From: Candidatus Paceibacter sp.
GTDB lineage: Bacteria > Patescibacteriota > Minisyncoccia > UBA9983
Direction of reading: 5' to 3'
Length of the DNA stretch: 64,000 nt
NCBI GenBank assembly: GCA_013360865.1
Contig: JABWAS010000004.1
Span: 412-64,411, forward strand
In this document: positions 9,359 to 60,680 of the stretch, one piece after another
Position numbering within the stretch: the stretch's first letter is position 1
Layout: each line of letters opens with the position of its first letter
Notes under the pieces: generated by a model
What the model was told of the DNA's origin: nothing
Seen by the model: the letters and a program-made list of their open reading frames with translations, nothing else
Databases searched by the model: none
Program-made: the position numbers and the translations under genes

Positions 9359-10384
9359 ATGAAAGGAAAGGACTGGTTAAAGTTGGCTATTGCTGTCGGT
9401 GTTTTTGGGCTTGCCGGCTATCTTGTTTACTCAAACCGGCGGCTTAGTCCGGATGATTTCGGACAAACGGCTTGCACGCAGGAGGTCAAGCTTTGCCCGG
9501 GCGGATCATACGTCGGACGCGGCGGGCCGGATTGCGAATTCGCGGCTTGTCCGGCAGCAAAATCATCTTCAAGCGAGGCGGCCGTCAAATCTAAAGAACC
9601 AAGCGCAATAAAGACCGTGGAGCAGATCGGAAAGAAAACCGAAAAACAAACAGCGCCCCAGACCCAAAGCAAGAATTATTCCTCGTCAATTTCTCAAGCG
9701 GCATCCTCATCGCTGGCGCCGAACCCAGAGCCGGTAAAAAATAATTCAGACAGGCTTGTGTTGCATAACATCGGCATAGAGCTTGAGCCGTATGCGGCCG
9801 GAAATCGCGCCGGCGATATTGTGTTTACGAAGTCAATCGGCGAACATTTTTACAAAAAGGCCTTTATGGAATTCGGGACAGAGTTGACCGGACCGGGCGG
9901 CACGGACATTATGCCGCATCCAACTTATATTCTGCCTCTAGGAACAAAATTATTTTCCCCGGTAAAAGGAGTCGTGGAAAACATCAGATACCAGCCGGAT
10001 CACAACGATTATGAAGTAGTCATCGTACCCGACGGATACTCAAACTGGCGGTTAAGTTTTGACCATGTGACTAATTTAAAAGTCGCCAAAGGAGACAGGC
10101 TTGAGGTTAAAGGTGTCGTCGCCGAGGTGGCGCCAAGCTCTAGTTCGGCCGTTCCTGCCGGATTCGGGCTGGTGGAACTGCAGGTGTGGGGAGAAAGGTC
10201 TTTCTTTCAATCCGAAATGATGGCGACTTGCCCTTTTCTTCTTTTGGATGAAAGCGTAAGGCAATCCATTTATGACAAAATCACCCGGCTGGCCAACGAC
10301 TGGGAAAATTATCTGGGCCAGGACGTTTACCGGCAGGAAAAGTGGGTTGCTCCCGGCTGTCTTTATGAAACGGCCGGCGCCTGA
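9359..10384 (+). CDS. Membrane-anchored secreted protein with N-terminal Cys motif (CTQEVKLCPGGSYVGRGGPDCEFAACP), Ser/Ala-rich linker and C-terminal globular domain
   Basis: 341 aa; N-terminal TM; Cys motif ~80% nucleotide-identical to the motif region in 7812..8828. Confidence 0.4.
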   Translation: MKGKDWLKLAIAVGVFGLAGYLVYSNRRLSPDDFGQTACTQEVKLCPGGSYVGRGGPDCEFAACPAAKSSSSEAAVKSKEPSAIKTVEQIGKKTEKQTAPQTQSKNYSSSISQAASSSLAPNPEPVKNNSDRLVLHNIGIELEPYAAGNRAGDIVFTKSIGEHFYKKAFMEFGTELTGPGGTDIMPHPTYILPLGTKLFSPVKGVVENIRYQPDHNDYEVVIVPDGYSNWRLSFDHVTNLKVAKGDRLEVKGVVAEVAPSSSSAVPAGFGLVELQVWGERSFFQSEMMATCPFLLLDESVRQSIYDKITRLANDWENYLGQDVYRQEKWVAPGCLYETAGA

Positions 10385-10500
10385 CGGTAATAATTCAACT
10401 CTTAATACTCTTTTAATGCAAGTCCCGGTTATAATTCAGGGAAAAGTCGCGATGACAGCCTTTATCAAATAAAATTTTATTATTTTAATTATTTTAAATT

Positions 10501-10908
10501 ATGAAAATGAAAATGAATCCGGTGGTGCATTTTGAAATGCCCTACGAAGACCGGGAACGCGTGGCGAAATTTTATCAAAAAGCGTTTGGTTGGGAAACGC
10601 AAATGATGGGGGAAGATATGGGTAATTACGTCCTGGCCATGACAACCGAAACCGACGAGAAGCGCATGGTTAAAAAACCGGGCGCCATAAACGGCGGATT
10701 TTACCCGAGGGCTTATGACCCCAAAGAGCGTTATTCCCCCCGCATTGTAATCGCCGTGGATGATATTATGGAAGCGATAAAAAATGTGAAAAAAGAGGGA
10801 GGAATGGTGGAGGATGAGCCGATGGACATCCCCGGCGTCGGCCGTTTTGTTATCTTCGCGGACACGGAAGGTAATTACGTGGGAATGATCCAATCGGTTA
10901 ACATGTAA
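10501..10908 (+). CDS. VOC/glyoxalase family protein
   Basis: 135 aa; VHFEMPYED...AKFYQKAFGWE glyoxalase-fold signature. Confidence 0.65.
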   Translation: MKMKMNPVVHFEMPYEDRERVAKFYQKAFGWETQMMGEDMGNYVLAMTTETDEKRMVKKPGAINGGFYPRAYDPKERYSPRIVIAVDDIMEAIKNVKKEGGMVEDEPMDIPGVGRFVIFADTEGNYVGMIQSVNM

Positions 10909-10953
10909 AGACGTGAAAATAATCCCGCCGCGGCGGAGTTGTTTTGCTAAAAC

Positions 10954-11445
10954 ATGAATAAAAAACTTTTTATTTTAATTTTCGTTGCGGTTGCCATCGC
11001 CGGTTATTTGGGCTACTCAATTTTAACCTCCAATAAAAACCAGGAAACCATCGCGGTTAAGCTGTATTATTACAACCCCGCGCTGGATAAAGACGCGGCT
11101 GGGAATATTATGTGCGGCAGAAACGGTTTGGCGGCGGTTCGGCGAGATATCCCCAAAAATAAAATGCCGATTCAAGACACGATCCGGCTTTTGCTTAAAG
11201 GAGAGCTTACCGCGGAAGAACACGCTCAGGGAATAGGCACCGAATATCCGCTGGAAGGTTTTTCTTTGAAAGAAGCTTTTCTGAAGGACGGAATTTTGAC
11301 ACTTGAATTTGAAGACAGTAAAAACAAAACCGTCGGCGGATCGTGCCGCGTCGGTATTTTGTGGTTCCAGATTGAAGCGACGGCGAAGCAATTTCCGGAA
11401 GCGCGCGAAGTCCGTTTCCTGCCGGAAGAAATTTTCCAGCCTTAA
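10954..11445 (+). CDS. GerMN-domain-like secreted/lipoprotein
   Basis: 163 aa; N-terminal signal anchor; pattern VKLYYYNP...RRDIP...IQDTIRLLLKGELTAEE...QIEATAKQFPEAREVRF resembles GerMN domain. Confidence 0.45.
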   Translation: MNKKLFILIFVAVAIAGYLGYSILTSNKNQETIAVKLYYYNPALDKDAAGNIMCGRNGLAAVRRDIPKNKMPIQDTIRLLLKGELTAEEHAQGIGTEYPLEGFSLKEAFLKDGILTLEFEDSKNKTVGGSCRVGILWFQIEATAKQFPEAREVRFLPEEIFQP

Positions 11446-11500
11446 AAAGTTAATAGTTTTTTAATTGCGGATATTTAAAGATAATTAAATAAAATATAAA

Positions 11501-27723: not shown

Positions 27724-27810
27724 AAGAAACAAATTTTGAAAATCCTGGGCGGGGGCGGCCGGCCGAGTCTGCGAGCCTGCCTGCCGGCAGGCAGGGCTGG
27801 GGCTAGAGGA
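27724..27810. repeat. MITE-like element with 13-14 bp terminal inverted repeats (TTTTGAAAATCCT ... AGGATTTTCCAAAA) and central palindrome CCTGCCTGCCGGCAGGCAGG
   Basis: Related copies at 60553..60680 (inverse orientation, longer) and core at 36008..36028. Confidence 0.75.
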
Positions 27811-35943: not shown

Positions 35944-36126
35944 ATGTAATATTTATTTTTCAAACTTTCAATCGGGTCAATCCCGCCTTAAGCGGGACTG
36001 CTTTCAACCCTGCCTGCCGGCAGGCAGGCGCTCACACACCTCTCCAAAATACAAGATAAAAATAGCACTGTTTGTTTTGAATTACAATAACTTATATAAT
36101 TTTATTTAATCGTTGGGATTGTTGTT

Positions 36127-37155: not shown

Positions 37156-38268
37156 ATGGACATTTCGCTCAAAGATTTGTCGTTTAAGAAACTGCTGGGC
37201 GGCTTGCAGGCGGCTTTGAAGGACAAACAAAGCGTGCTTGGCGTGGACATCGGCGGCTCGTCGGTGAAGGTGGTGCAGTTGAGAAAAGAGAAGGAGAGAG
37301 CGATTCTGGAAACTTACGGCGAAGTGGCGCTCGGCCCTTACGGCGGACTAAAAATCGGACAGAACATCAAACTGCCGGAAGACAAAATCGCCGAGGCGGT
37401 GCGGGACGTGGTCAAAGAGTCCAACGCCAAGGCCACCGCGGCCAAAGTGGCCATTCCGCTGCGCTCCAGCTTCGTCAAAATAATCACCCTGCCGGTCGCC
37501 GACGACAGCAACATTTCCGAAATAATCGCAATGGAGGCCAGGCGCCACATTCCCATTCCGGTTTCCGAAGTGGCGCTGGACTGGTGGGCGATACCCAAAA
37601 CCTCGGACAATAAAAATCAGGCCAAACCGACCAACTCCACCGAGGTGCTGCTGGTGGCCATCCACAACGACGTTATCAACGATTACAAAAACATCATCAA
37701 GAAAGCCGGACTGGAAGCCGCTTCCTATGAGATAGAGGCGTTCAGCGTGGTGCGCTCCGCCATCAGCCGCGGCAGTCCGACCATCGCCGTCGTGGACTTC
37801 GGTTCCGCTTCCACCAAAATGGCCGTGGTGGATTACGGTATCATCAAATCATCGCACTTGATAAACAAAGGCTCGCACGACATCACTTTGGCCATGGCCC
37901 AGTCTTTGGGCGTGGATTTCGCCAAAGCGGAGGAGATGAAAAAGGAGATAGGCCTTTCCGACTTGCCGGAACATCAGGAAATAGTGGACGTGATGAAGCC
38001 GATACTGGATTATATTTTCCATGAGATCGGCGTTTTCCTCAAAGATTTTCAGGCCAGGCACAACCGCTCGGTGAGCAAAATCATCTTTACCGGCGGCGGT
38101 TCTTTGTTGAAAGGATTGAGCGGCCACGGGGTGAAAAGGCTGACAGTGGAAGTGGAGGCGGCGGATCCGTTCGGCAAAACCGAACATCCGGTATTTTTGG
38201 ACAAAATCCTGAAAGAGATCGGGCCGAACTTTTCCGTGGCTACTGGTTTAGCGCTGGGGGAATTATAG
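37156..38268 (+). CDS. pilM: Type IV pilus assembly protein PilM
   Basis: 370 aa; actin-like ATPase fold LGVDIGGSSVKVVQL; begins T4P cluster. Confidence 0.85.
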   Translation: MDISLKDLSFKKLLGGLQAALKDKQSVLGVDIGGSSVKVVQLRKEKERAILETYGEVALGPYGGLKIGQNIKLPEDKIAEAVRDVVKESNAKATAAKVAIPLRSSFVKIITLPVADDSNISEIIAMEARRHIPIPVSEVALDWWAIPKTSDNKNQAKPTNSTEVLLVAIHNDVINDYKNIIKKAGLEAASYEIEAFSVVRSAISRGSPTIAVVDFGSASTKMAVVDYGIIKSSHLINKGSHDITLAMAQSLGVDFAKAEEMKKEIGLSDLPEHQEIVDVMKPILDYIFHEIGVFLKDFQARHNRSVSKIIFTGGGSLLKGLSGHGVKRLTVEVEAADPFGKTEHPVFLDKILKEIGPNFSVATGLALGEL

Positions 38269-38280
38269 CTTCGCCGAGAA

Positions 38281-38320
38281 CTTGGAAGCGAAACTTCCAA
38301 TTGGAAGTTTCGCTTCCAAG
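38281..38320. repeat. 40-bp perfect palindrome (CTTGGAAGCGAAACTTCCAA/TTGGAAGTTTCGCTTCCAAG); family member also at 56405..56449
   Basis: Second half is exact reverse complement of first; sits just after pilM stop; likely terminator-like hairpin/repeat family. Confidence 0.8.
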
Positions 38321-38419
38321 TTTCTTCCAAGTTTAAATTTCCAATTAAAAAATCATTTCACAGGGTAAATGTGGATAGCCCCTTTTTGCTTTAAAAATTT
38401 GACAGGTTAAAATATTGAT

Positions 38420-45174: not shown

Positions 45175-45790
45175 CAACACAAAACCCTCCGGCAAATGCC
45201 GGAGGGTTTTGTGTTACCCCCATAAACCCCCAGCTTTAGCTGGGGTGTGCGTTTAAAGACGAAGTCCTTGTAATAAAATCACCTTAAGTCGATATTAACA
45301 ACCTAAGGTGATTTTTGCGTATGAACAAGCGATTGTATCAGCTGACCCACTCAACATGGATCTGCGATTATCACGTTGTCTGGTGTTCCAAATACCGTGG
45401 AAAAGTGTTGGAACCACCTTTTATTAAACAAGAGCTGAAAAGAATGTTCAAGTACATAGCCAAATGGAAAGGACTTGTAATCCAGCAGTGGCACATCGGA
45501 GACGAACACATCCATCTGTTTGTATCCATTCCGCCCAAATATTCCGTCGCCTACATAACCCAGGTAATGAAAGGAAAAACCTCAATGTGGCTGAAGAAAA
45601 AGACCAAGAAATTCCCGAAAGGAACGCTGTGGGCAAGAGGCTATTATGTTTCCACCATCGGCATTAACGAACACCAGATAAGAAACTACATCAAAAACCA
45701 GCAACACCACCAAGTGGAAATGCCCACGCTGTTTTAATCCGCCGAAGGCGGAAAGAAAGAAACCCCTAGTTTTAACTAGGGGTTTTCATT
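45175..45790 (+). mobile_element. IS200/IS605-family-like insertion sequence (tnpA only) with subterminal hairpins
   Basis: Left hairpins CACAAAACCCTCCGGC-aaat-GCCGGAGGGTTTTGTG (45175..45215), CCCCAGC-ttt-AGCTGGGG, ATCACCTTAAG..CCTAAGGTGAT; right hairpins CCGCCGAAGGCGG and AAACCCCTAGTTTTAACTAGGGGTTT. Confidence 0.7.
45315..45737 (+). CDS. tnpA: IS200-family Y1 (HUH) transposase TnpA
   Basis: 140 aa; HUH motif HIHLFVSIPP and catalytic Tyr region LWARGYYVSTIG. Confidence 0.85.
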   Translation: MRMNKRLYQLTHSTWICDYHVVWCSKYRGKVLEPPFIKQELKRMFKYIAKWKGLVIQQWHIGDEHIHLFVSIPPKYSVAYITQVMKGKTSMWLKKKTKKFPKGTLWARGYYVSTIGINEHQIRNYIKNQQHHQVEMPTLF

Positions 45791-46426: not shown

Positions 46427-46460
46427 CCCCTCATCGACGCCCCTCATCGACGTCGGACGG
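46427..46460. repeat. REP-like palindromic element (CCCCTCATCGACG x2 / CCTCATCGACGTCGGACG) flanking RAYT gene
   Basis: Family CCTCATCGACGTCGGACGTCGATGAGG also at 46593..46621, 47207..47237, 52623..52647 (variant), 57592..57631. Confidence 0.75.
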
Positions 46461-46472
46461 ATGATAGCTTAG

Positions 46473-47186
46473 CTACTCAATAATTAAACCACCCATTTTA
46501 TTTAATGAGTCAACAGACCACTCTTTTATAAATCTTTCGTAGTCCGACTCGTCTTTAAATTGATTTTTGATAATTTCAATTCCTGATATTATCTCATCGA
46601 CGTCCGACGTCGATGAAGGGGTAAGGTAGTGTCTTAAACTTGACCATTTGTAGCTTAGGATTTTTTTCTTTTCCAATTCCCAGTTTTTTAATTTATTTTC
46701 TCTCCAATCCTTACTACTCAGAAAATCCAAAGGGTTTAAGTGTATGTAAACTGACAAATGCAAAAGATATTCATTTGAATCAATATGCTTTGCTTTGAAA
46801 CTGCCTTCAAACAAAGAACCCCTCCTTTCATTTTTTGTGTTTATATACTTTGCTATTGATGTATTGCATCTTCTTATAAAATCACTTACTCCGTTTTCTT
46901 TAATTTCTTTTATTAAAAGATGATAATGATTGGGCATTATTGCGTAGCATAATATTTCTGAAAGTCTTTCCCCTGATTTTGATATTTCAATCGCTTTTTC
47001 AAGCGTGGCTGTTCGGTAATTTCTAAGATAATCGAAAGCCTGACTGGATTTTGTTGAGTTGGCTAATAAAAATGTTTGGGCTAATTTGTTTGCATTGTCT
47101 TTGTCGCTAAATTCCGGCATGCCCAAAATAACCCTGCTATATACATGATAGTATTCTCCAATAGTAAGCTTTTCTTCTCTAATCAT
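46473..47186 (-). CDS. REP-associated tyrosine transposase (RAYT)-like Y1 HUH transposase
   Basis: 237 aa; HUH motif IMPNHYHLLIKE and YIHLNP catalytic Tyr motif characteristic of TnpA_REP; flanked on both sides by REP palindromes; one REP copy inside its CDS encoding PSSTSDVDEII. Confidence 0.7.
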   Translation of the reverse strand: MIREEKLTIGEYYHVYSRVILGMPEFSDKDNANKLAQTFLLANSTKSSQAFDYLRNYRTATLEKAIEISKSGERLSEILCYAIMPNHYHLLIKEIKENGVSDFIRRCNTSIAKYINTKNERRGSLFEGSFKAKHIDSNEYLLHLSVYIHLNPLDFLSSKDWRENKLKNWELEKKKILSYKWSSLRHYLTPSSTSDVDEIISGIEIIKNQFKDESDYERFIKEWSVDSLNKMGGLIIE

Positions 47187-47206
47187 AGGTATAACTATAC
47201 CATTAT

Positions 47207-47237
47207 ACCCTCATCGACGTCGGACGTCGATGAGGGG
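47207..47237. repeat. REP-like palindrome (ACCCTCATCGACGTCGGACGTCGATGAGGGG)
   Basis: Near-perfect palindrome immediately upstream of RAYT start and of pilD. Confidence 0.8.
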
Positions 47238-49237: not shown

Positions 49238-50551
49238 ATGTTAAAGTTCAAATGTCAAAACCAGAAAGGTAAAATAATTCTGTCAAAAATGACAAGAGGT
49301 TTCACTCTCATAGAAACTATTGTTGCTATAGCGCTTCTTTCCGCCGCGGTGGCCGGACCGCTGACCATGGCGATAAAAAGCATCAGCAACGCTTCCGTGT
49401 CGCAAGACCAACTGACGGCCTTTTATCTGGCGCAGGAGGCTATAGAATACGTGAGAAAGGTGCGGGACGATAACGTATTGAGCGGAAATTCCGGAAGCGA
49501 TTGGCTGGATGGGTTGGATGAGTGCGTTTTAGTTGACATGCCGCTTTGTAATTCCGGAATCACTACTTTTGATTATACTGGAACGGCTCAAGAGTGTAAA
49601 ATTCCTCCTGGCGTGACAAGTGTTGAAATTACGGCTTACGGAGCAGCCCCCGGGGGATTAGGGGGTATGGCTAAGGGGACAATTTCCGTTACCTCAAACG
49701 ATATTTTACATGTATACGTAGGCGGTTCCAGTGGTTACAATGGTGGAGGTAATGGAGGGAGTGGTGTACCAACCCCCGCTCATGGAGGTAATGGTGGTGG
49801 TGCTTCTGACGTCAGACTTAATGGAACCAACTTTTCTGATAGAGTACTTGTTGCTGGCGGTGGAGGAGGAGGGGGGGCTTATGGTTCTAAACCAGGTCGT
49901 GGAGGGTCTGGTGGCGGAGGTGATGGAGACAATGCTGGTTGCGTGGGTTTTGGAGGAATGGGTGGAACGTTGTTATCGGGTGGAGTAGGAGGTAAAGGTA
50001 GTCAAAATGGTACACCTGGTGTACCAGGCAACGGCGGCAACGGCGGCAACGGCGGTAATGGGTGGTATGATGGTGGTGGTGGTGGTGGTGGTGGTGGTGG
50101 GTATTACGGCGGCGGTGGTGGCGGGTCAGGGACTTACGACGGCTCTTGTTGGCCATATTCTGGTGGCGGCGGTGGTGGCGGTGGAAGTAGCTATGTTCCG
50201 TCTGGAGGCACAACTCAAAGCGGCGTGGAAACGGGAAATGGCCAAGTAATTATCGATGCGGGAGGCAGCGGCGGCGGCGGCGGGAAAAAAACAAACAAGG
50301 TTGGTTGTTACATAGACGCGCGCGATGGTAAGGTAGACCAATGTCCGGAAACCGGTTGCCCCGTTTTGAACAAAGTCGGCGACGGTTATGGTTATTCCGG
50401 CTCCAACGGCACAATTTATACCAGAACCGTCAAAATTGACGGCACCTTAAACGGCGGCAACGAGGCCAGAGTTAACGTGGAAGTAAAATGGAACGGCCGG
50501 TTCGGGCAAAAATCAATGCTTTTGCAGGATAATATTTTTAATTGGAGGTGA
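49238..50551 (+). CDS. Large pilin-like protein with glycine-rich C-terminal domain
   Basis: 437 aa; prepilin N-terminus TRGFTLIETIVAIALL; long GGxGG/GGN tracts including (GGT)n run ~50070..50102; paralogous to C-terminal domain of 51146..52609. Confidence 0.55.
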   Translation: MLKFKCQNQKGKIILSKMTRGFTLIETIVAIALLSAAVAGPLTMAIKSISNASVSQDQLTAFYLAQEAIEYVRKVRDDNVLSGNSGSDWLDGLDECVLVDMPLCNSGITTFDYTGTAQECKIPPGVTSVEITAYGAAPGGLGGMAKGTISVTSNDILHVYVGGSSGYNGGGNGGSGVPTPAHGGNGGGASDVRLNGTNFSDRVLVAGGGGGGGAYGSKPGRGGSGGGGDGDNAGCVGFGGMGGTLLSGGVGGKGSQNGTPGVPGNGGNGGNGGNGWYDGGGGGGGGGGYYGGGGGGSGTYDGSCWPYSGGGGGGGGSSYVPSGGTTQSGVETGNGQVIIDAGGSGGGGGKKTNKVGCYIDARDGKVDQCPETGCPVLNKVGDGYGYSGSNGTIYTRTVKIDGTLNGGNEARVNVEVKWNGRFGQKSMLLQDNIFNWR

Positions 50552-51145: not shown

Positions 51146-55806
<4,661 letters not shown>

Positions 55807-56342: not shown

Positions 56343-56375
56343 ATTCAAGTTTAGACATCGGATGTCCAATGGACA
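56343..56375. terminator. 33-bp palindromic hairpin (AGACATCGGATGTCC-aat-GGACATCCGATGTCT) followed by T-run
   Basis: Perfect 15-bp stem; inverse-variant copy at 60384..60419. Confidence 0.7.
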
Positions 56376-56522
56376 TCCGATGTCTTTTGCGGCTGGGCAA
56401 GTCCACTTGGAAGTAACTTGGAAGTTTCGCTTCCAAGTTACTTCCAAGTTAAATTTGAATACCTAATTAATTACTAAAGATAAGTTGATTTCAGATGGCG
56501 AATAAGGCAGAATTAAACCATT

Positions 56523-56874: not shown

Positions 56875-58302
56875 ATGTTCAGCAATCTTACAATTTCAAA
56901 AGTTCGCAGTATGTTGTTAAAGGGAGATTTTTCCTGCAAAGAACTTGTTTCTTATTACATTAAAAACATCAAAGAAAAAAACCCGGGCATCAACGCTTAT
57001 CTGGAAGTTTTTGACGACGCCATGGAGGAAGCGGAAAAAATTGACGAAGAAATAAAATCCGGCCGGGCGAAAAACAAGCCGTTGGCGGGAGTGCCCATAG
57101 CTGTCAAAGACAATATTCTGATAAGGGGTAAAAAATGCACGGCCGGTTCCAAAATGCTGGAAAATTATCGGGCGGCTTACGACGCCACGGCTATAAAAAA
57201 AATCCGCGAGGCCGGCGCGATATTTATAGGAAGGACCAATATGGACGAGTTTGCCATGGGCGCCTCAACGGAAAATTCCGCTTACGGCGTTACTAAAAAT
57301 CCTCATGATTTGTCTCGGGTTGCCGGCGGTTCTTCCGGCGGTTCGGCGGCGGCCGTGGCCATGGATGGCTGTTTGGCGGCGCTTGGCTCGGACACCGGCG
57401 GTTCCATCCGCCAGCCGGCCGGATTTTGCGGCATTGTCGGGCTTAACCCCACTTACGGCGCGGTTTCCCGCTCCGGTCTTATCGCCATGGCTTCTTCTTT
57501 TGACCAGATCGGGCCGATGGCGAAGACGGCTGAAGACGCGGAAATTATTTTCAATATTATAAAAGGCCGGGACCAAATGGACTCAACTTCTGCCTCATCG
57601 ACGTCGGACGTCGATGAGGACGTCGATGAGGAGAGATGGCCGGAGAAACCGAGGATAGGGGTGTTAAAATATGACAAAAAGAACGCGGACGAGGAAGTAA
57701 ACGCCGCTTTGGAAAAGACGGCGGCGGCGCTGGAAAAGTCCGGTTGCCGGGTTGAAGAAATTGAATTGCCTAACATCGGCTATTCCGTGCCGTGTTATTA
57801 CGTTTTGGTGCCGGCCGAAGTTTCTTCCAATCTGGCGCGCTTTGACGGGGTTAAGTATGGGCTGCTTAAAGAAGGAGAAAATCTAATTGGCGATTACATG
57901 GAGACGAGGGCGGCCGGATTCGGTCGGGAAGTGAAGAGAAGAATAATGCTCGGGACTTACGTTTTGTCCGCCGGATATTACGACGCTTACTACGCCAAAG
58001 CCCAGAAAACAAGAGAACTGATAAAAAAAGATTTTAAAGGCGCTTTCCGAAAAGTTGATCTTATCTTGTCGCCGACTTCGCCGTCCCCCGCCTTTAAGAT
58101 AGGGGAAAAAGCGAGCGATCCTTTGAAGATGTACCTGGAGGATATTTTTACCGCTCCGGCCAAAATCGCCGGATTGCCGGCCATAGCTGTTCCCGCGGGC
58201 GTTATTTCGGCCGGTTTGCCGATAGGTTTGCAGTACACGGCGCCTTGGTTTAAGGAAAACCGGCTTTTTAAAATAGCGAAAAAACATGAGGGATATTTTT
58301 GA
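56875..58302 (+). CDS. gatA: Glu/Asp-tRNA amidotransferase subunit A (contains in-frame REP insertion)
   Basis: 475 aa; amidase signature GGSSGGSAAAVA, catalytic Ser-cisSer-Lys; REP palindrome at 57592..57631 encodes ASSTSDVDEDVDEE loop. Confidence 0.9.
   Translation: MFSNLTISKVRSMLLKGDFSCKELVSYYIKNIKEKNPGINAYLEVFDDAMEEAEKIDEEIKSGRAKNKPLAGVPIAVKDNILIRGKKCTAGSKMLENYRAAYDATAIKKIREAGAIFIGRTNMDEFAMGASTENSAYGVTKNPHDLSRVAGGSSGGSAAAVAMDGCLAALGSDTGGSIRQPAGFCGIVGLNPTYGAVSRSGLIAMASSFDQIGPMAKTAEDAEIIFNIIKGRDQMDSTSASSTSDVDEDVDEERWPEKPRIGVLKYDKKNADEEVNAALEKTAAALEKSGCRVEEIELPNIGYSVPCYYVLVPAEVSSNLARFDGVKYGLLKEGENLIGDYMETRAAGFGREVKRRIMLGTYVLSAGYYDAYYAKAQKTRELIKKDFKGAFRKVDLILSPTSPSPAFKIGEKASDPLKMYLEDIFTAPAKIAGLPAIAVPAGVISAGLPIGLQYTAPWFKENRLFKIAKKHEGYF
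57592..57631. repeat. REP-like palindrome copy inside gatA coding sequence
   Basis: GCCTCATCGACGTCGGACGTCGATGAGG + partial repeat ACGTCGATGAGG; in frame, no stop. Confidence 0.8.
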
Positions 58303-60383: not shown

Positions 60384-60419
60384 AAGACATCCGATGTCCA
60401 ATTGGACATCGGATGTCTT
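60384..60419. terminator. 36-bp palindromic hairpin (AAGACATCCGATGTCCAATTGGACATCGGATGTCTT)
   Basis: Perfect palindrome; same family as 56343..56375. Confidence 0.7.
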
Positions 60420-60552: not shown

Positions 60553-60680
60553 TTTGGAAAATCCTTTAGCCCCAGCCCTGCCTGCCGGCAGGCAGGCTCG
60601 CAGACTCGGCTGGCCGCCCCCGACCCCGCCCGCCACGCAAGCCAGCTTGCTGGCGTTGCGGGCAGGCAGGATTTTCAAAA
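60553..60680. repeat. MITE-like element, longer copy (TIRs TTTTGGAAAATCCT / AGGATTTTCAAAA; core CCCTGCCTGCCGGCAGGCAGG)
   Basis: ~85% identical over shared part to reverse complement of 27724..27810 plus ~45-bp GC-rich insertion; directly upstream of nrdD. Confidence 0.75.

What the first reader, a model, noticed from the sequence alone, without database searches (positions are those of the whole stretch)
46427..47237. RAYT-like transposase with its REP palindromes, including REP copies in frame inside its own CDS and inside gatA
- **RAYT gene:** The 237-aa protein has HUH (HYHLL) and YIHLNP motifs typical of REP-associated tyrosine transposases. It is flanked by REP palindromes (CCTCATCGACGTCGGACGTCGATGAGG) at 46427..46460 and 47207..47237.
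- **Copy inside RAYT:** A copy at 46593..46621 lies inside the RAYT ORF and encodes …PSSTSDVDEII….
- **Copy inside gatA:** A copy at 57592..57631 lies inside gatA in frame (no stop), adding ~14 aa (ASSTSDVDEDVDEE) to a variable loop.
- **Spacer copy:** A variant is at 52623..52647 in the pilin-ligA spacer.

REPs are normally extragenic. In-frame REP insertions tolerated in an essential amidotransferase gene and in the RAYT itself are unusual. They also show that the palindrome translates to an acidic Ser/Asp/Glu peptide in one frame.
Basis: seen in the sequence. Interest (0 to 1): 0.65.

Follow-up and report, generated by a model that had tools for sequence, protein, structure and literature searches.

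The report
RAYT-like gene with in-gene REP hairpins
A small-genome (Patescibacteria) bacterium carries a REP-type hairpin repeat and its transposase-like gene, and copies of the hairpin sit in frame inside that gene and inside the essential genes gatA and ligA, where related lineages carry their own version of the hairpin at the same spots.

Summary

**What is there**
- ORF 46473-47186 (-) is a Y1/HUH protein of a large Patescibacteria family. Sequence, fold and gene context all place it nearest RAYTs.
- The 27-nt palindrome CCTCATCGACGTC-G-GACGTCGATGAGG occurs at four places:
  - intact 5' of the gene, on its promoter;
  - inside the gene, at about aa 190;
  - decayed at the 3' end;
  - letter for letter in the gatA loop.
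- A variant (type B) lies just upstream of ligA.

- The gatA loop has normal length, so there is no net 14-aa insertion.
- The gene upstream of ligA is not a pilin.
- In-frame intragenic REPs are already published.

- A second REP family has two intergenic dimers and an in-frame copy in ligA. That copy is a true 14-aa insertion.

**What relatives show**
- In about 25 loci the family is flanked by a locus-specific palindrome that abuts the -10 box.
- In the closest subclade the 5', internal and 3' copies differ by 0.8/25 within a lineage and 7.2/25 between lineages.
- In four lineage comparisons the gatA or ligA loop carries the REP type of that lineage's RAYT (gatA in three, ligA in one). Two of the four rest on the gene and the RAYT coming from the same sample, not the same contig.

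This points to repeated overwriting at fixed, tolerated sites. I rate it a new variant of a known kind.

The parts
46473..47186 (-). RAYT-like Y1/HUH gene, 237 aa (HUH = H87-Y-H89; Tyr motif Y147-IHLNP)
   Evidence: ORF. Pfam Y1_Tnp 33.4 bits. NCBIfam REP_Tyr_transpos 43 bits, below the cut-off of 80. 545 homologues, 56-73% identical over the full length. Model pLDDT 82, with best PDB fold match 4ER8.
47208..47236 (.). Intact 5' REP (type A, 14-bp stem). It covers the -35 and spacer region of the RAYT promoter; the -10 TATAAT lies at 47202-47207 on the - strand
   Evidence: -16 kcal/mol, z -6.9. Promoter scan finds TCGACG-17-TATAAT, 10 of 12. A palindrome directly abutting TATAAT/TAAAAT is seen in about 25 of 30 family loci.
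46593..46621 (.). REP copy inside the RAYT reading frame (aa 189-198, PSSTSDVDEI), 11-bp stem
   Evidence: The coded residues fall in a lower-confidence stretch of the model, coil then the start of a short helix. The same internal copy, always matching the local flanking REP, is present in L001, L005, L087, L088, L089, L094 and L095.
46428..46465 (.). Decayed 3' REP, 7 nt past the stop codon. Left arm tandemly duplicated (CCCTCATCGACG x2); right arm has lost 2 nt
   Evidence: The fold is not better than shuffles. The orthologous 3' copy is intact in L001.
57592..57631 (+). Type A REP in frame in gatA (56875-58302). 27 of 27 nt match the 5' RAYT copy, followed by a 12-nt duplicate of the right arm. 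It encodes ASSTSDVDE-DVDE
   Evidence: The coded residues 240-252 lie in a coil linker (aa 231-259, pLDDT below 50). Linker length is normal against 3H0L.
52623..52647 (.). Type B REP variant in the 44-nt spacer between a GIY-YIG/glycine-rich gene and ligA
   Evidence: It has 2 mismatches in 25 to the cognate REP of RAYT P0017 (L094) and to the gatA loops of L003 and L084.
52975..53020 (+). Second REP family: ACTTGGACATC-C-GATGTCCAAGT plus a degenerate second unit, in frame in ligA (52654-54711). It gives a 14-aa net insertion just upstream of the KxDG adenylation motif
   Evidence: Folds at -18.8 kcal/mol, z -6.9. An insertion of exactly these residues appears against LigA structures 1B04 and 1TAE.
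56353..56385 (.). Second REP family, inverted dimer (REPIN-like) in the yqeY-gatC spacer
   Evidence: Folds at -16.8 kcal/mol, z -9.0.
60384..60419 (.). Second REP family, inverted dimer, intergenic
   Evidence: Folds at -18.1 kcal/mol, z -8.6.

Best explanation
This is a REPtron: a vertically inherited, single-strand-DNA-acting Y1/HUH enzyme of a Patescibacteria-specific RAYT-like clade, together with its cognate REP hairpin.

**Shown**
- The enzyme gene is bracketed by its own hairpin.
- The 5' hairpin lies on the gene's -35 and spacer region, directly against the -10 box.
- In the closest subclade a third copy lies in frame in a loop of the enzyme itself.
- Further copies lie in short spacers and in frame in tolerant linker loops of neighbouring essential genes: gatA for type A, ligA for a second REP family.
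- Between lineages the hairpin sequence changes. Within a lineage the gene-flanking, internal and gatA or ligA copies change together.

**Inferred**
- The enzyme recognises the folded hairpin on single-stranded DNA, as E. coli RAYT does.
- It occasionally copies or re-writes hairpins at sites that already hold a hairpin or are otherwise permissive, probably with a preference for its own neighbourhood.
- Only in-frame, stop-free, loop-located copies survive selection in this gene-dense genome.
- Binding at the 5' copy probably autoregulates the promoter.
For: **Protein**
- Y1_Tnp above the Pfam cut-off; best NCBIfam model REP_Tyr_transpos.
- HUH and Y-x3-NP motifs invariant.
- Foldseek top hit 4ER8 (RAYT plus REP hairpin), E 4e-6, ahead of all IS200/IS605 TnpAs.

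**Context**
- In 22 or more of 28 genome loci the gene has the same GC-rich palindrome just before the start and just after the stop. The palindrome differs from locus to locus.
- The palindrome abuts TATAAT or TAAAAT.
- Paralogues within one genome are divergent and each has its own palindrome. This is not IS-like identical duplication.
- The RAYT-ligA-gatA synteny is conserved.

**Concerted change**
- RAYT-associated copies differ by 0.8 of 25 within a lineage (maximum 2) and by 7.2 of 25 between lineages.
- gatA loop matches the RAYT REP: 27 of 27 in the window, and 1 mismatch in sample ERR3281028 (L086 against L087).
- The gatA loop of L093 has the same core and loop as the L089 REP from the same sample, with 4 mismatches in 25, but at a shifted position.
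- The type B gatA loop of L003 and L084 is 25 of 25 identical to the three REPs of RAYT P0017 in L094.
- The ligA loop of L001 is an inverted dimer of its own RAYT-internal variant.
- In L085 the gatA and ligA loops carry the same palindrome.

**Controls**
- More distant relatives have short, non-palindromic loops.
- GC-rich stems of 8 bp or more number 16 in the window against about 3 in shuffles.

**Precedent**
- Intragenic in-frame REPs are documented in PMC3733652.
Against: - Copy number looks low.
  - There are five type A or B copies in 64 kb, all within 11 kb of the gene.
  - An exact-match scan of 241 million metagenome records found only the RAYT-flanking copies of one relative.
  - No match was found in 185,579 species genomes.
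  - Family loci show about 0.3 extra copies per 20 kb.
  - The 'highly repeated' hallmark of classical REPs is therefore not shown.
- No GTAG-type cleavage tag is evident next to the hairpins.
- The NCBIfam equivalog cut-off is not reached.
- No transposition, cleavage or binding has been observed.
- Pairing of gatA and RAYT contigs in two lineages rests only on their coming from the same sample.
- L001 and L003 carry a type A RAYT but a type B gatA loop, so updating is not universal.
- The 3' copy in the window is decayed, so this particular element may no longer be active.
Confidence: 0.72

Rival explanations
1. The hairpins are host-functional cis elements, not selfish mobile DNA. The RAYT-like protein would be a fully domesticated hairpin-binding factor acting in, for example, replication, transcription or mRNA control of the ligA-gatCAB region. 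Its few binding sites would co-evolve with its specificity, and the intragenic copies would be kept because the nucleic-acid hairpin is needed there.
For: - Perfect palindromes (11-28-bp stems) are kept at the same ligA loop in six lineages, although their sequences differ completely.
- Copy number is low and the copies cluster near the gene.
- The gene is syntenic, appears vertically inherited and is highly conserved at 56-73% identity.
- The 5' hairpin is built into the promoter family-wide.
Against: - Close relatives do well without any hairpin in these loops: L092 and L009 in gatA, L009 in ligA.
- L091 shows plain decay of the palindrome.
- L084 and L085 keep the loop hairpins but have no RAYT at the syntenic site.
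- In L093 the gatA copy sits at a shifted position, which looks like an independent insertion.
- ligA loops carry REP types unrelated to the adjacent RAYT in the window, L005 and L094.
Confidence: 0.15
2. Homogenisation is independent of the RAYT. Short-tract gene conversion between copies, plus intra-palindrome template switching (quasi-palindrome correction), would keep arms perfect and copies alike. The Y1 protein would be merely a linked passenger or a dead transposase.
For: - Template switching is an established way for imperfect palindromes to become perfect (general knowledge; not tested here).
- Arm duplications at 46428-46452 and 57620-57631 look like replication slippage.
- The gatA alleles of L085 and L092 show that homologous recombination shuffles this region.
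Against: - Conversion between 25-30-nt tracts in unrelated flanks is inefficient.
- It does not explain why every paralogue of the protein family has its own matching palindrome pair at fixed positions.
- It does not explain why the REP type tracks the RAYT variant across lineages.
Confidence: 0.1
3. The gatA match is coincidental. The loop would be native GatA sequence (DSTS...PDF-like) that merely resembles the palindrome.
For: - Canonical GatA has an acidic, Pro- and aromatic-rich linker of the same length.
- Many orthologues share SSTPDFDE at the protein level, and L091 keeps the peptide without the hairpin.
Against: - The match to the non-coding RAYT-flanking copy is 27 of 27 nt.
- A different lineage shows a different, equally exact match.
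- The type B gatA loop is 25 of 25 identical to non-coding REPs in L094.
- Chance expectation is 0.00.
Confidence: 0.03

Closest known systems
REPtrons: RAYT (TnpAREP) plus REP/REPIN of Proteobacteria (E. coli, Pseudomonas, Stenotrophomonas)
   Same: - A Y1/HUH single-domain enzyme whose best fold match is E. coli RAYT bound to its REP.
- The gene is bracketed by cognate GC-rich hairpins, mostly in inverted orientation.
- Low gene copy number with divergent paralogues, each with its own REP.
- Syntenic, apparently vertical inheritance.
- Inverted REP dimers (REPIN-like) exist for the second family.
   Different: - The protein is about 235 aa, with a conserved extra C-terminal region of about 80 aa. 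It scores below the curated RAYT model.
- No GTAG tag is visible.
- Copy number appears to be tens at most rather than hundreds.
- A REP lies inside the enzyme's own reading frame.
- The 3' REP is often read into the ORF end.
- The 5' REP is fused to the -10 box.
- The host phylum is not covered in the RAYT literature I could search.
Intragenic REPs and Rickettsia palindromic elements (Di Nocera et al. 2013, PMC3733652; RPEs as cited there)
   Same: - Short palindromic repeats inserted in frame in housekeeping genes, including DNA ligase and tRNA-related enzymes.
- They encode extra loop residues.
- Different REPs lie at about the same recB site in two Xanthomonas species.
   Different: - Here the same two loops (gatA, ligA) are occupied in many lineages by the lineage's current REP type.
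- The intragenic copies match the RAYT-flanking copies exactly, giving a direct link between enzyme variant and intragenic copy.
- CGTC-type REPs and RPEs have no associated transposase.
IS200/IS605 TnpA elements
   Same: - Same HUH/Tyr chemistry and recognition of subterminal hairpins.
- A canonical IS200-type TnpA (45315-45737) lies 700 nt away, with its own 19-bp-stem hairpin.
   Different: - The RAYT-like gene is not present as identical multiple copies.
- Both of its ends carry the same hairpin.
- Its hairpin also occurs alone, without the gene.
- The neighbouring IS200 hairpin is unrelated in sequence.
PARCELs (palindromic amphipathic repeat coding elements, PMC2996958)
   Same: Palindromic DNA repeats that are translated in frame within genes (title and abstract seen).
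   Different: PARCELs are longer, tandem repeat modules of surface proteins. They are not single hairpins linked to a Y1 enzyme. I did not read the paper in detail.

Membership tests
RAYT (REP-associated tyrosine transposase) | Y1/HUH fold with an HUH motif and a catalytic Tyr in a Y-x3-NP-type motif | tested here: met
   - Pfam Y1_Tnp 33.4 bits against a cut-off of 23.
- H87, Y88, H89, Y147, H149, N151 and P152 are invariant across the 31-sequence alignment.
- Foldseek top hit 4ER8, E 4.3e-6, TM(target) 0.66.
RAYT (REP-associated tyrosine transposase) | Score above the curated equivalog model (NCBIfam NF047646) | tested here: not met
   43.2 bits against a cut-off of 80. It is nevertheless the best-scoring NCBIfam model, whereas the neighbouring 140-aa gene hits transpos_IS200 at 117 bits.
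RAYT (REP-associated tyrosine transposase) | Gene flanked on both sides by the cognate REP/REPIN | tested here: met
   - Window: intact 5' copy and decayed 3' copy.
- L001: both copies intact.
- 22 or more of 28 family loci have matching 5' and 3' palindromes.
RAYT (REP-associated tyrosine transposase) | Flanking 16-mers highly over-represented genome-wide (Bertels et al. 2017, PMC5581495) | tested here: inconclusive
   - Only a 64-kb window is available. It holds 4-5 copies against 0 expected, all within 11 kb of the gene.
- Public scans found no dispersed copies.
- Family loci have about 0.3 extra copies per 20 kb.
- The criterion is quoted.
RAYT (REP-associated tyrosine transposase) | Single or low copy, no near-identical duplicates, vertical inheritance | tested here: met
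   - One copy in the window.
- Genomes with 3-4 members have paralogues that differ in identity to the query (about 30-60%) and carry different palindromes.
- Synteny with the pilin cluster, ligA and gatCAB is conserved in L001, L094, L005, L006 and L009.
RAYT (REP-associated tyrosine transposase) | Binds and cleaves its REP hairpin on single-stranded DNA | not testable with these tools
   This needs biochemistry. Only co-variation of protein variant and hairpin sequence is shown.
REP (repetitive extragenic palindrome) | Short GC-rich imperfect palindrome forming a stable hairpin | tested here: met
   Stems of 9-16 bp, -10 to -18 kcal/mol, z -4 to -9.
REP (repetitive extragenic palindrome) | Extragenic location | tested here: not met
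   - Three of the eight hairpin-forming units or dimers in the window lie inside reading frames: the RAYT gene, gatA and ligA.
- In L085 both copies are intragenic.
- Intragenic REPs are a documented minority class.
REP (repetitive extragenic palindrome) | GTAG or CGTC terminal tag (Di Nocera classification) | tested here: inconclusive
   No conserved tetranucleotide lies outside the stem. CGTC/GACG occurs at the centre of type A but not in the TTACGAT-loop types. No systematic tag analysis was done.

The most novel reading that the evidence does not exclude
The hairpins in the gatA and ligA loops, and inside the RAYT gene, are not relics of single insertions. They would be fixed 'safe-harbour' sites that the Y1 enzyme repeatedly overwrites in place with its current cognate hairpin. 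That would be a natural, hairpin-guided, site-for-site DNA replacement process, which makes coding loops of essential genes evolve in concert with a transposase's own ends, possibly with a preference for its chromosomal neighbourhood.
Probability: 0.25. Interest if true: 0.8.

Novelty: new variant of a known kind. Interest (0 to 1): 0.62.

Why it matters
- How REPs are made, spread and kept uniform is still unsettled, even for E. coli and Pseudomonas.
- This system is minimal:
  - a tiny genome;
  - few copies;
  - a compact enzyme gene with three of its own hairpins;
  - copies in two essential genes a few kilobases away.
- Natural lineages already show the 'before' and 'after' states. Examples are type B against type A in the same gatA codons, and six different perfect palindromes in one ligA loop.
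- That makes replacement versus insertion, cis preference and enzyme-hairpin specificity directly testable, by comparative metagenomics and with short oligonucleotides in vitro.
- It shows that in gene-dense Patescibacteria, selfish or semi-domesticated hairpins are accommodated inside proteins. This affects annotation and protein-family alignments of GatA and LigA.
- It extends RAYT-like systems to a phylum for which I found no report.

Tried and rejected
- **Exact-pattern scans.** The type A 25-mer gave 0 loci in genome contigs. In metagenome contigs it gave only three stretches from two contigs of one relative, all at the RAYT. A genome-wide census was therefore impossible, and the source genome is not in those collections.
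- **A clean insertion event.** I hoped that L085 and L092, which are 98.6% identical over 11 kb, would show one in gatA. Instead the whole 3' two-thirds of gatA is a diverged allele, which indicates homologous recombination. It is not informative about REP insertion.
- **PDB sequence searches.** These reached only the ISDra2 TnpA HUH region (E 0.007-0.2). The fold search was needed to see the RAYT relationship.
- **Rfam.** It finds only tRNAs in the window; no known RNA family overlaps any hairpin.
- **A ligA hairpin that is not a REP.** CCGATTCTCCCAC.CAAAGAATCGG in ligA is a by-product of the conserved DSPTQRIG motif.
- **GatA model confidence.** pLDDT is low in several segments besides the REP-coded one, so low confidence alone does not prove disorder there.
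- **REPIN reading of the internal and 3' copies.** I considered that they form a REPIN. Their orientation is inverted in the window and L001 but direct in L087, L089 and L094, so this is not a consistent feature.
- **The neighbouring IS200 TnpA as mobiliser.** I considered it. Its own hairpin is unrelated.
Full report
**1. The observation**

- The window is AT-rich and gene-dense. Its protein relatives are all from Patescibacteria/Paceibacteria MAGs.
- The palindrome CCTCATCGACGTC-G-GACGTCGATGAGG is real and non-random.
  - The 25-nt core occurs at 47210 and 57594 with 0 mismatches and at 46593 with 1-2 mismatches. Shuffles give 0.00 expected.
- As single-stranded DNA:
  - the 5' copy, the gatA copy and the internal copy fold far better than shuffles;
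  - the copy at 46428-46465 does not. Its left arm is duplicated and its right arm is damaged, so it is a decayed 3' copy.
- The ORFs read through the internal and gatA copies in the Ser/Thr/Asp/Glu frame.

**2. The gene**

- ORF 46473-47186 (-) passes Pfam Y1_Tnp.
- Its best NCBIfam model is REP_Tyr_transpos, at 43 bits against a cut-off of 80. The 140-aa ORF at 45315-45737 is a canonical IS200 TnpA.
- The protein has 545 homologues, the best 120 at 55-73% identity over the full length. The few that carry a source name are called Patescibacteria.
- HUH (H87-Y-H89) and Y147-IHLNP are invariant.
- An AlphaFold model (pLDDT 82) has the E. coli RAYT-REP hairpin complex 4ER8 as its best PDB match (E 4e-6). 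That is ahead of every IS200/IS605 TnpA.

**3. Family context**

I fetched 80 genome loci and examined 28 of the best-matching ones, plus relatives from metagenomes.

- The gene is bracketed by one GC-rich palindrome, 15-40 nt before the start codon and at or over the stop codon. The palindrome differs from locus to locus.
- Genomes with three or four paralogues have a different palindrome for each.
- The 5' palindrome abuts a TATAAT or TAAAAT box followed by 5-15 nt and the ATG.
- In the window the scan finds TCGACG-17-TATAAT inside the REP.
- This is the REPtron arrangement, with the added feature that the hairpin is part of the promoter. Autoregulation is my inference.
- The pilin-cluster / RAYT / ligA / yqeY / gatCAB neighbourhood is conserved in L001, L094, L005, L006 and L009. 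That fits vertical inheritance.

**4. The copy inside the gene**

- The closest homologues have extra residues exactly where the window has PSSTSDVDE.
- DNA from seven lineages shows an internal hairpin at about aa 190: window, L001, L005, L087, L088, L089 and L094/L095.
- In every lineage the internal hairpin equals that lineage's flanking REP.
- In several lineages the 3' REP is read into the end of the ORF.
- Over 25-nt cores, RAYT-associated copies differ by 0.8 positions within a lineage (maximum 2) and by 7.2 between lineages.
- The conserved C-terminal 40 residues continue after the hairpin. The coded residues fall in a lower-confidence coil-to-helix stretch of the model.

**5. gatA**

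  - GatA is 475 aa, against 444-494 in the 120 nearest homologues listed.
  - The linker after DSTS is as long as in Aquifex GatA 3H0L.
  - The coded residues lie in a coil linker.
- The DNA is nevertheless REP DNA.

| Source | gatA loop | Relation to a RAYT REP |
|---|---|---|
| Window | type A | 27 of 27 nt identical to the non-coding 5' RAYT copy |
| Sample ERR3281028 (L086) | TTACCTtCGACTTACGATGTCGTAGGTAA | RAYT of the same sample (L087) has ACCTACGAC-TTACGAT-GTCGTAGGT three times |
| Sample ERZ1292631 (L093) | GCATCGAC-ATACGAT-GTCGATGC, eight codons further along | Next to a RAYT whose REP is CTCATCGAC-TTACGAT-GTCGATGAG |
| L003 and L084 | CTCGTCGACACCGGACTTCGACGAG (type B) | 25 of 25 identical to all three REPs of RAYT P0017 in L094; 2 mismatches from the window's spacer copy at 52623 |
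| L085 | perfect CCTCGACATC-C-GATGTCGAGG | no RAYT in the locus |
| L090, L091 | decayed versions | - |
| L092, L005, L006, L009 | no palindrome | controls |

- The loop is therefore a recurrently occupied site, and the occupant tends to be the lineage's current REP.
- L001/L003 is an exception: a type A RAYT with a type B gatA loop.

**6. A second family, and ligA**

- The window has a second hairpin family, (T)TGGACATC-S-GATGTCCA(A). It forms inverted dimers at 56353-56385 and 60384-60419, plus an in-frame copy in ligA at 52975-53020.
- Against the LigA structures 1B04 and 1TAE, the window protein has a 14-residue insertion made exactly of the REP-coded residues. It lies just before the KxDG motif.
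- The same ligA loop holds a perfect palindrome in other lineages:

| Locus | Stem | Note |
|---|---|---|
| L084 | 16 bp | - |
| L085 = L092 | 14 bp | same REP as the L085 gatA loop |
| L001 | 22 bp | inverted dimer of its own RAYT-internal variant |
| L094 | 28 bp | - |
| L005 | 13 bp | - |

- L009, L006, L016, L035, L044 and L052 have short loops without a palindrome.

**7. Chance and artefact**

- GC-rich stems of 8 bp or more number 16 in the window, against 1-7 in shuffles.
- The same features recur in independent assemblies from JGI, ENA, Logan and GenBank. Assembly artefact is therefore unlikely.

**8. Mechanism**

- Shown:
  - the anatomy;
  - co-variation of enzyme variant and hairpin;
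  - concerted change of flanking, internal and intragenic copies;
  - loop tolerance.
- Inferred:
  - the enzyme recognises the hairpin on single-stranded DNA, as 4ER8 does;
  - it occasionally writes its hairpin at permissive sites or at sites that already bear a hairpin, perhaps preferentially nearby (all type A and B copies lie within 11 kb of the gene);
  - selection keeps only in-frame, stop-free copies. Of the three frames of type A, one contains TGA and one is strongly basic.
- Rivals are host-functional hairpins, enzyme-independent conversion or template switching, and coincidence. They are weighed in the rival section.

**9. Known versus new**

- RAYT-REP systems and intragenic in-frame REPs are both published (PMC5581495, PMC3733652).
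- I found no paper linking RAYT or REPIN with CPR, Patescibacteria or Parcubacteria.
- The features that appear new are:
  - this long RAYT-like clade;
  - the hairpin fused to the -10 box;
  - a REP kept inside the enzyme's own frame;
  - lineage-matched hairpins at fixed loops of gatA and ligA.
- Copy number seems low, so 'REP' is used here in the structural and associative sense.

**Verdict.** The finding is real and richer than first described, and I rate it a new variant of a known kind.

Noticed in passing
window 45315-45737 (+), with hairpin 45176-45215: A canonical IS200/IS605 TnpA (NCBIfam transpos_IS200, 117 bits) lies 700 nt from the RAYT-like gene. It is preceded by a perfect 19-bp-stem hairpin, AACACAAAACCCTCCGGCA..TGCCGGAGGGTTTTGTGTT, unrelated to the REPs. 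No tnpB lies next to it. It is absent from the syntenic region of L001.
   Followed up: partly
window 27776-27795, 36009-36028, 60577-60596: A third repeat: the perfect 20-nt palindrome CCTGCCTGCCGGCAGGCAGG, all three copies intergenic. The copies at 27.7 kb and 60.5 kb share a GC-rich element of about 80 nt in opposite orientation (96% identity), bordered by AAAATCC/GGATTTT. There is no Rfam hit.
   Followed up: partly
window 51146-52609 (+): A 487-aa protein with an N-terminal GIY-YIG nuclease domain and a C-terminal ALK/LTK-type glycine-rich domain, directly upstream of ligA. This is an odd domain pairing.
   Followed up: no
L084 3155-4028; L085 3225-3824: At the position where the window, L001 and L094 have the RAYT-like gene (between a pilin and the prepilin peptidase), relatives carry other cargo. 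L084 has a nucleotidyltransferase/HepT toxin-antitoxin pair and L085/L092 have a PaaX-like gene. The slot is a variable region.
   Followed up: no
L085 against L092, gatA (10001-11450 in both): Two contigs that are 98.6% identical over 11.3 kb drop to about 85-90% identity from roughly nt 240 of gatA onward. Only one of them has the REP in the loop. It looks like allele replacement by homologous recombination within a population.
   Followed up: partly
L001 5115-5157; L084 1839-1869; window 50008-50026 and 38279-38322: Further long perfect palindromes that I did not assign to a family:
- an 18-bp stem inside a pilin-like gene of L001;
- a 15-bp stem, intergenic, in L084;
- TGGTACACC-T-GGTGTACCA inside the pilin-like gene 49238-50551;
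- a 44-nt palindrome after 37156-38268.
   Followed up: no
family loci: Many genes of this family have only 5-8 nt between the -10 box and the ATG, which suggests leaderless or near-leaderless mRNAs.
   Followed up: no
L093 693-760: Upstream of the gatA hairpin in L093, the loop contains GGTGTCGATGGC. It looks like the remnant of an older right arm, which hints at layered insertions in the same loop.
   Followed up: no
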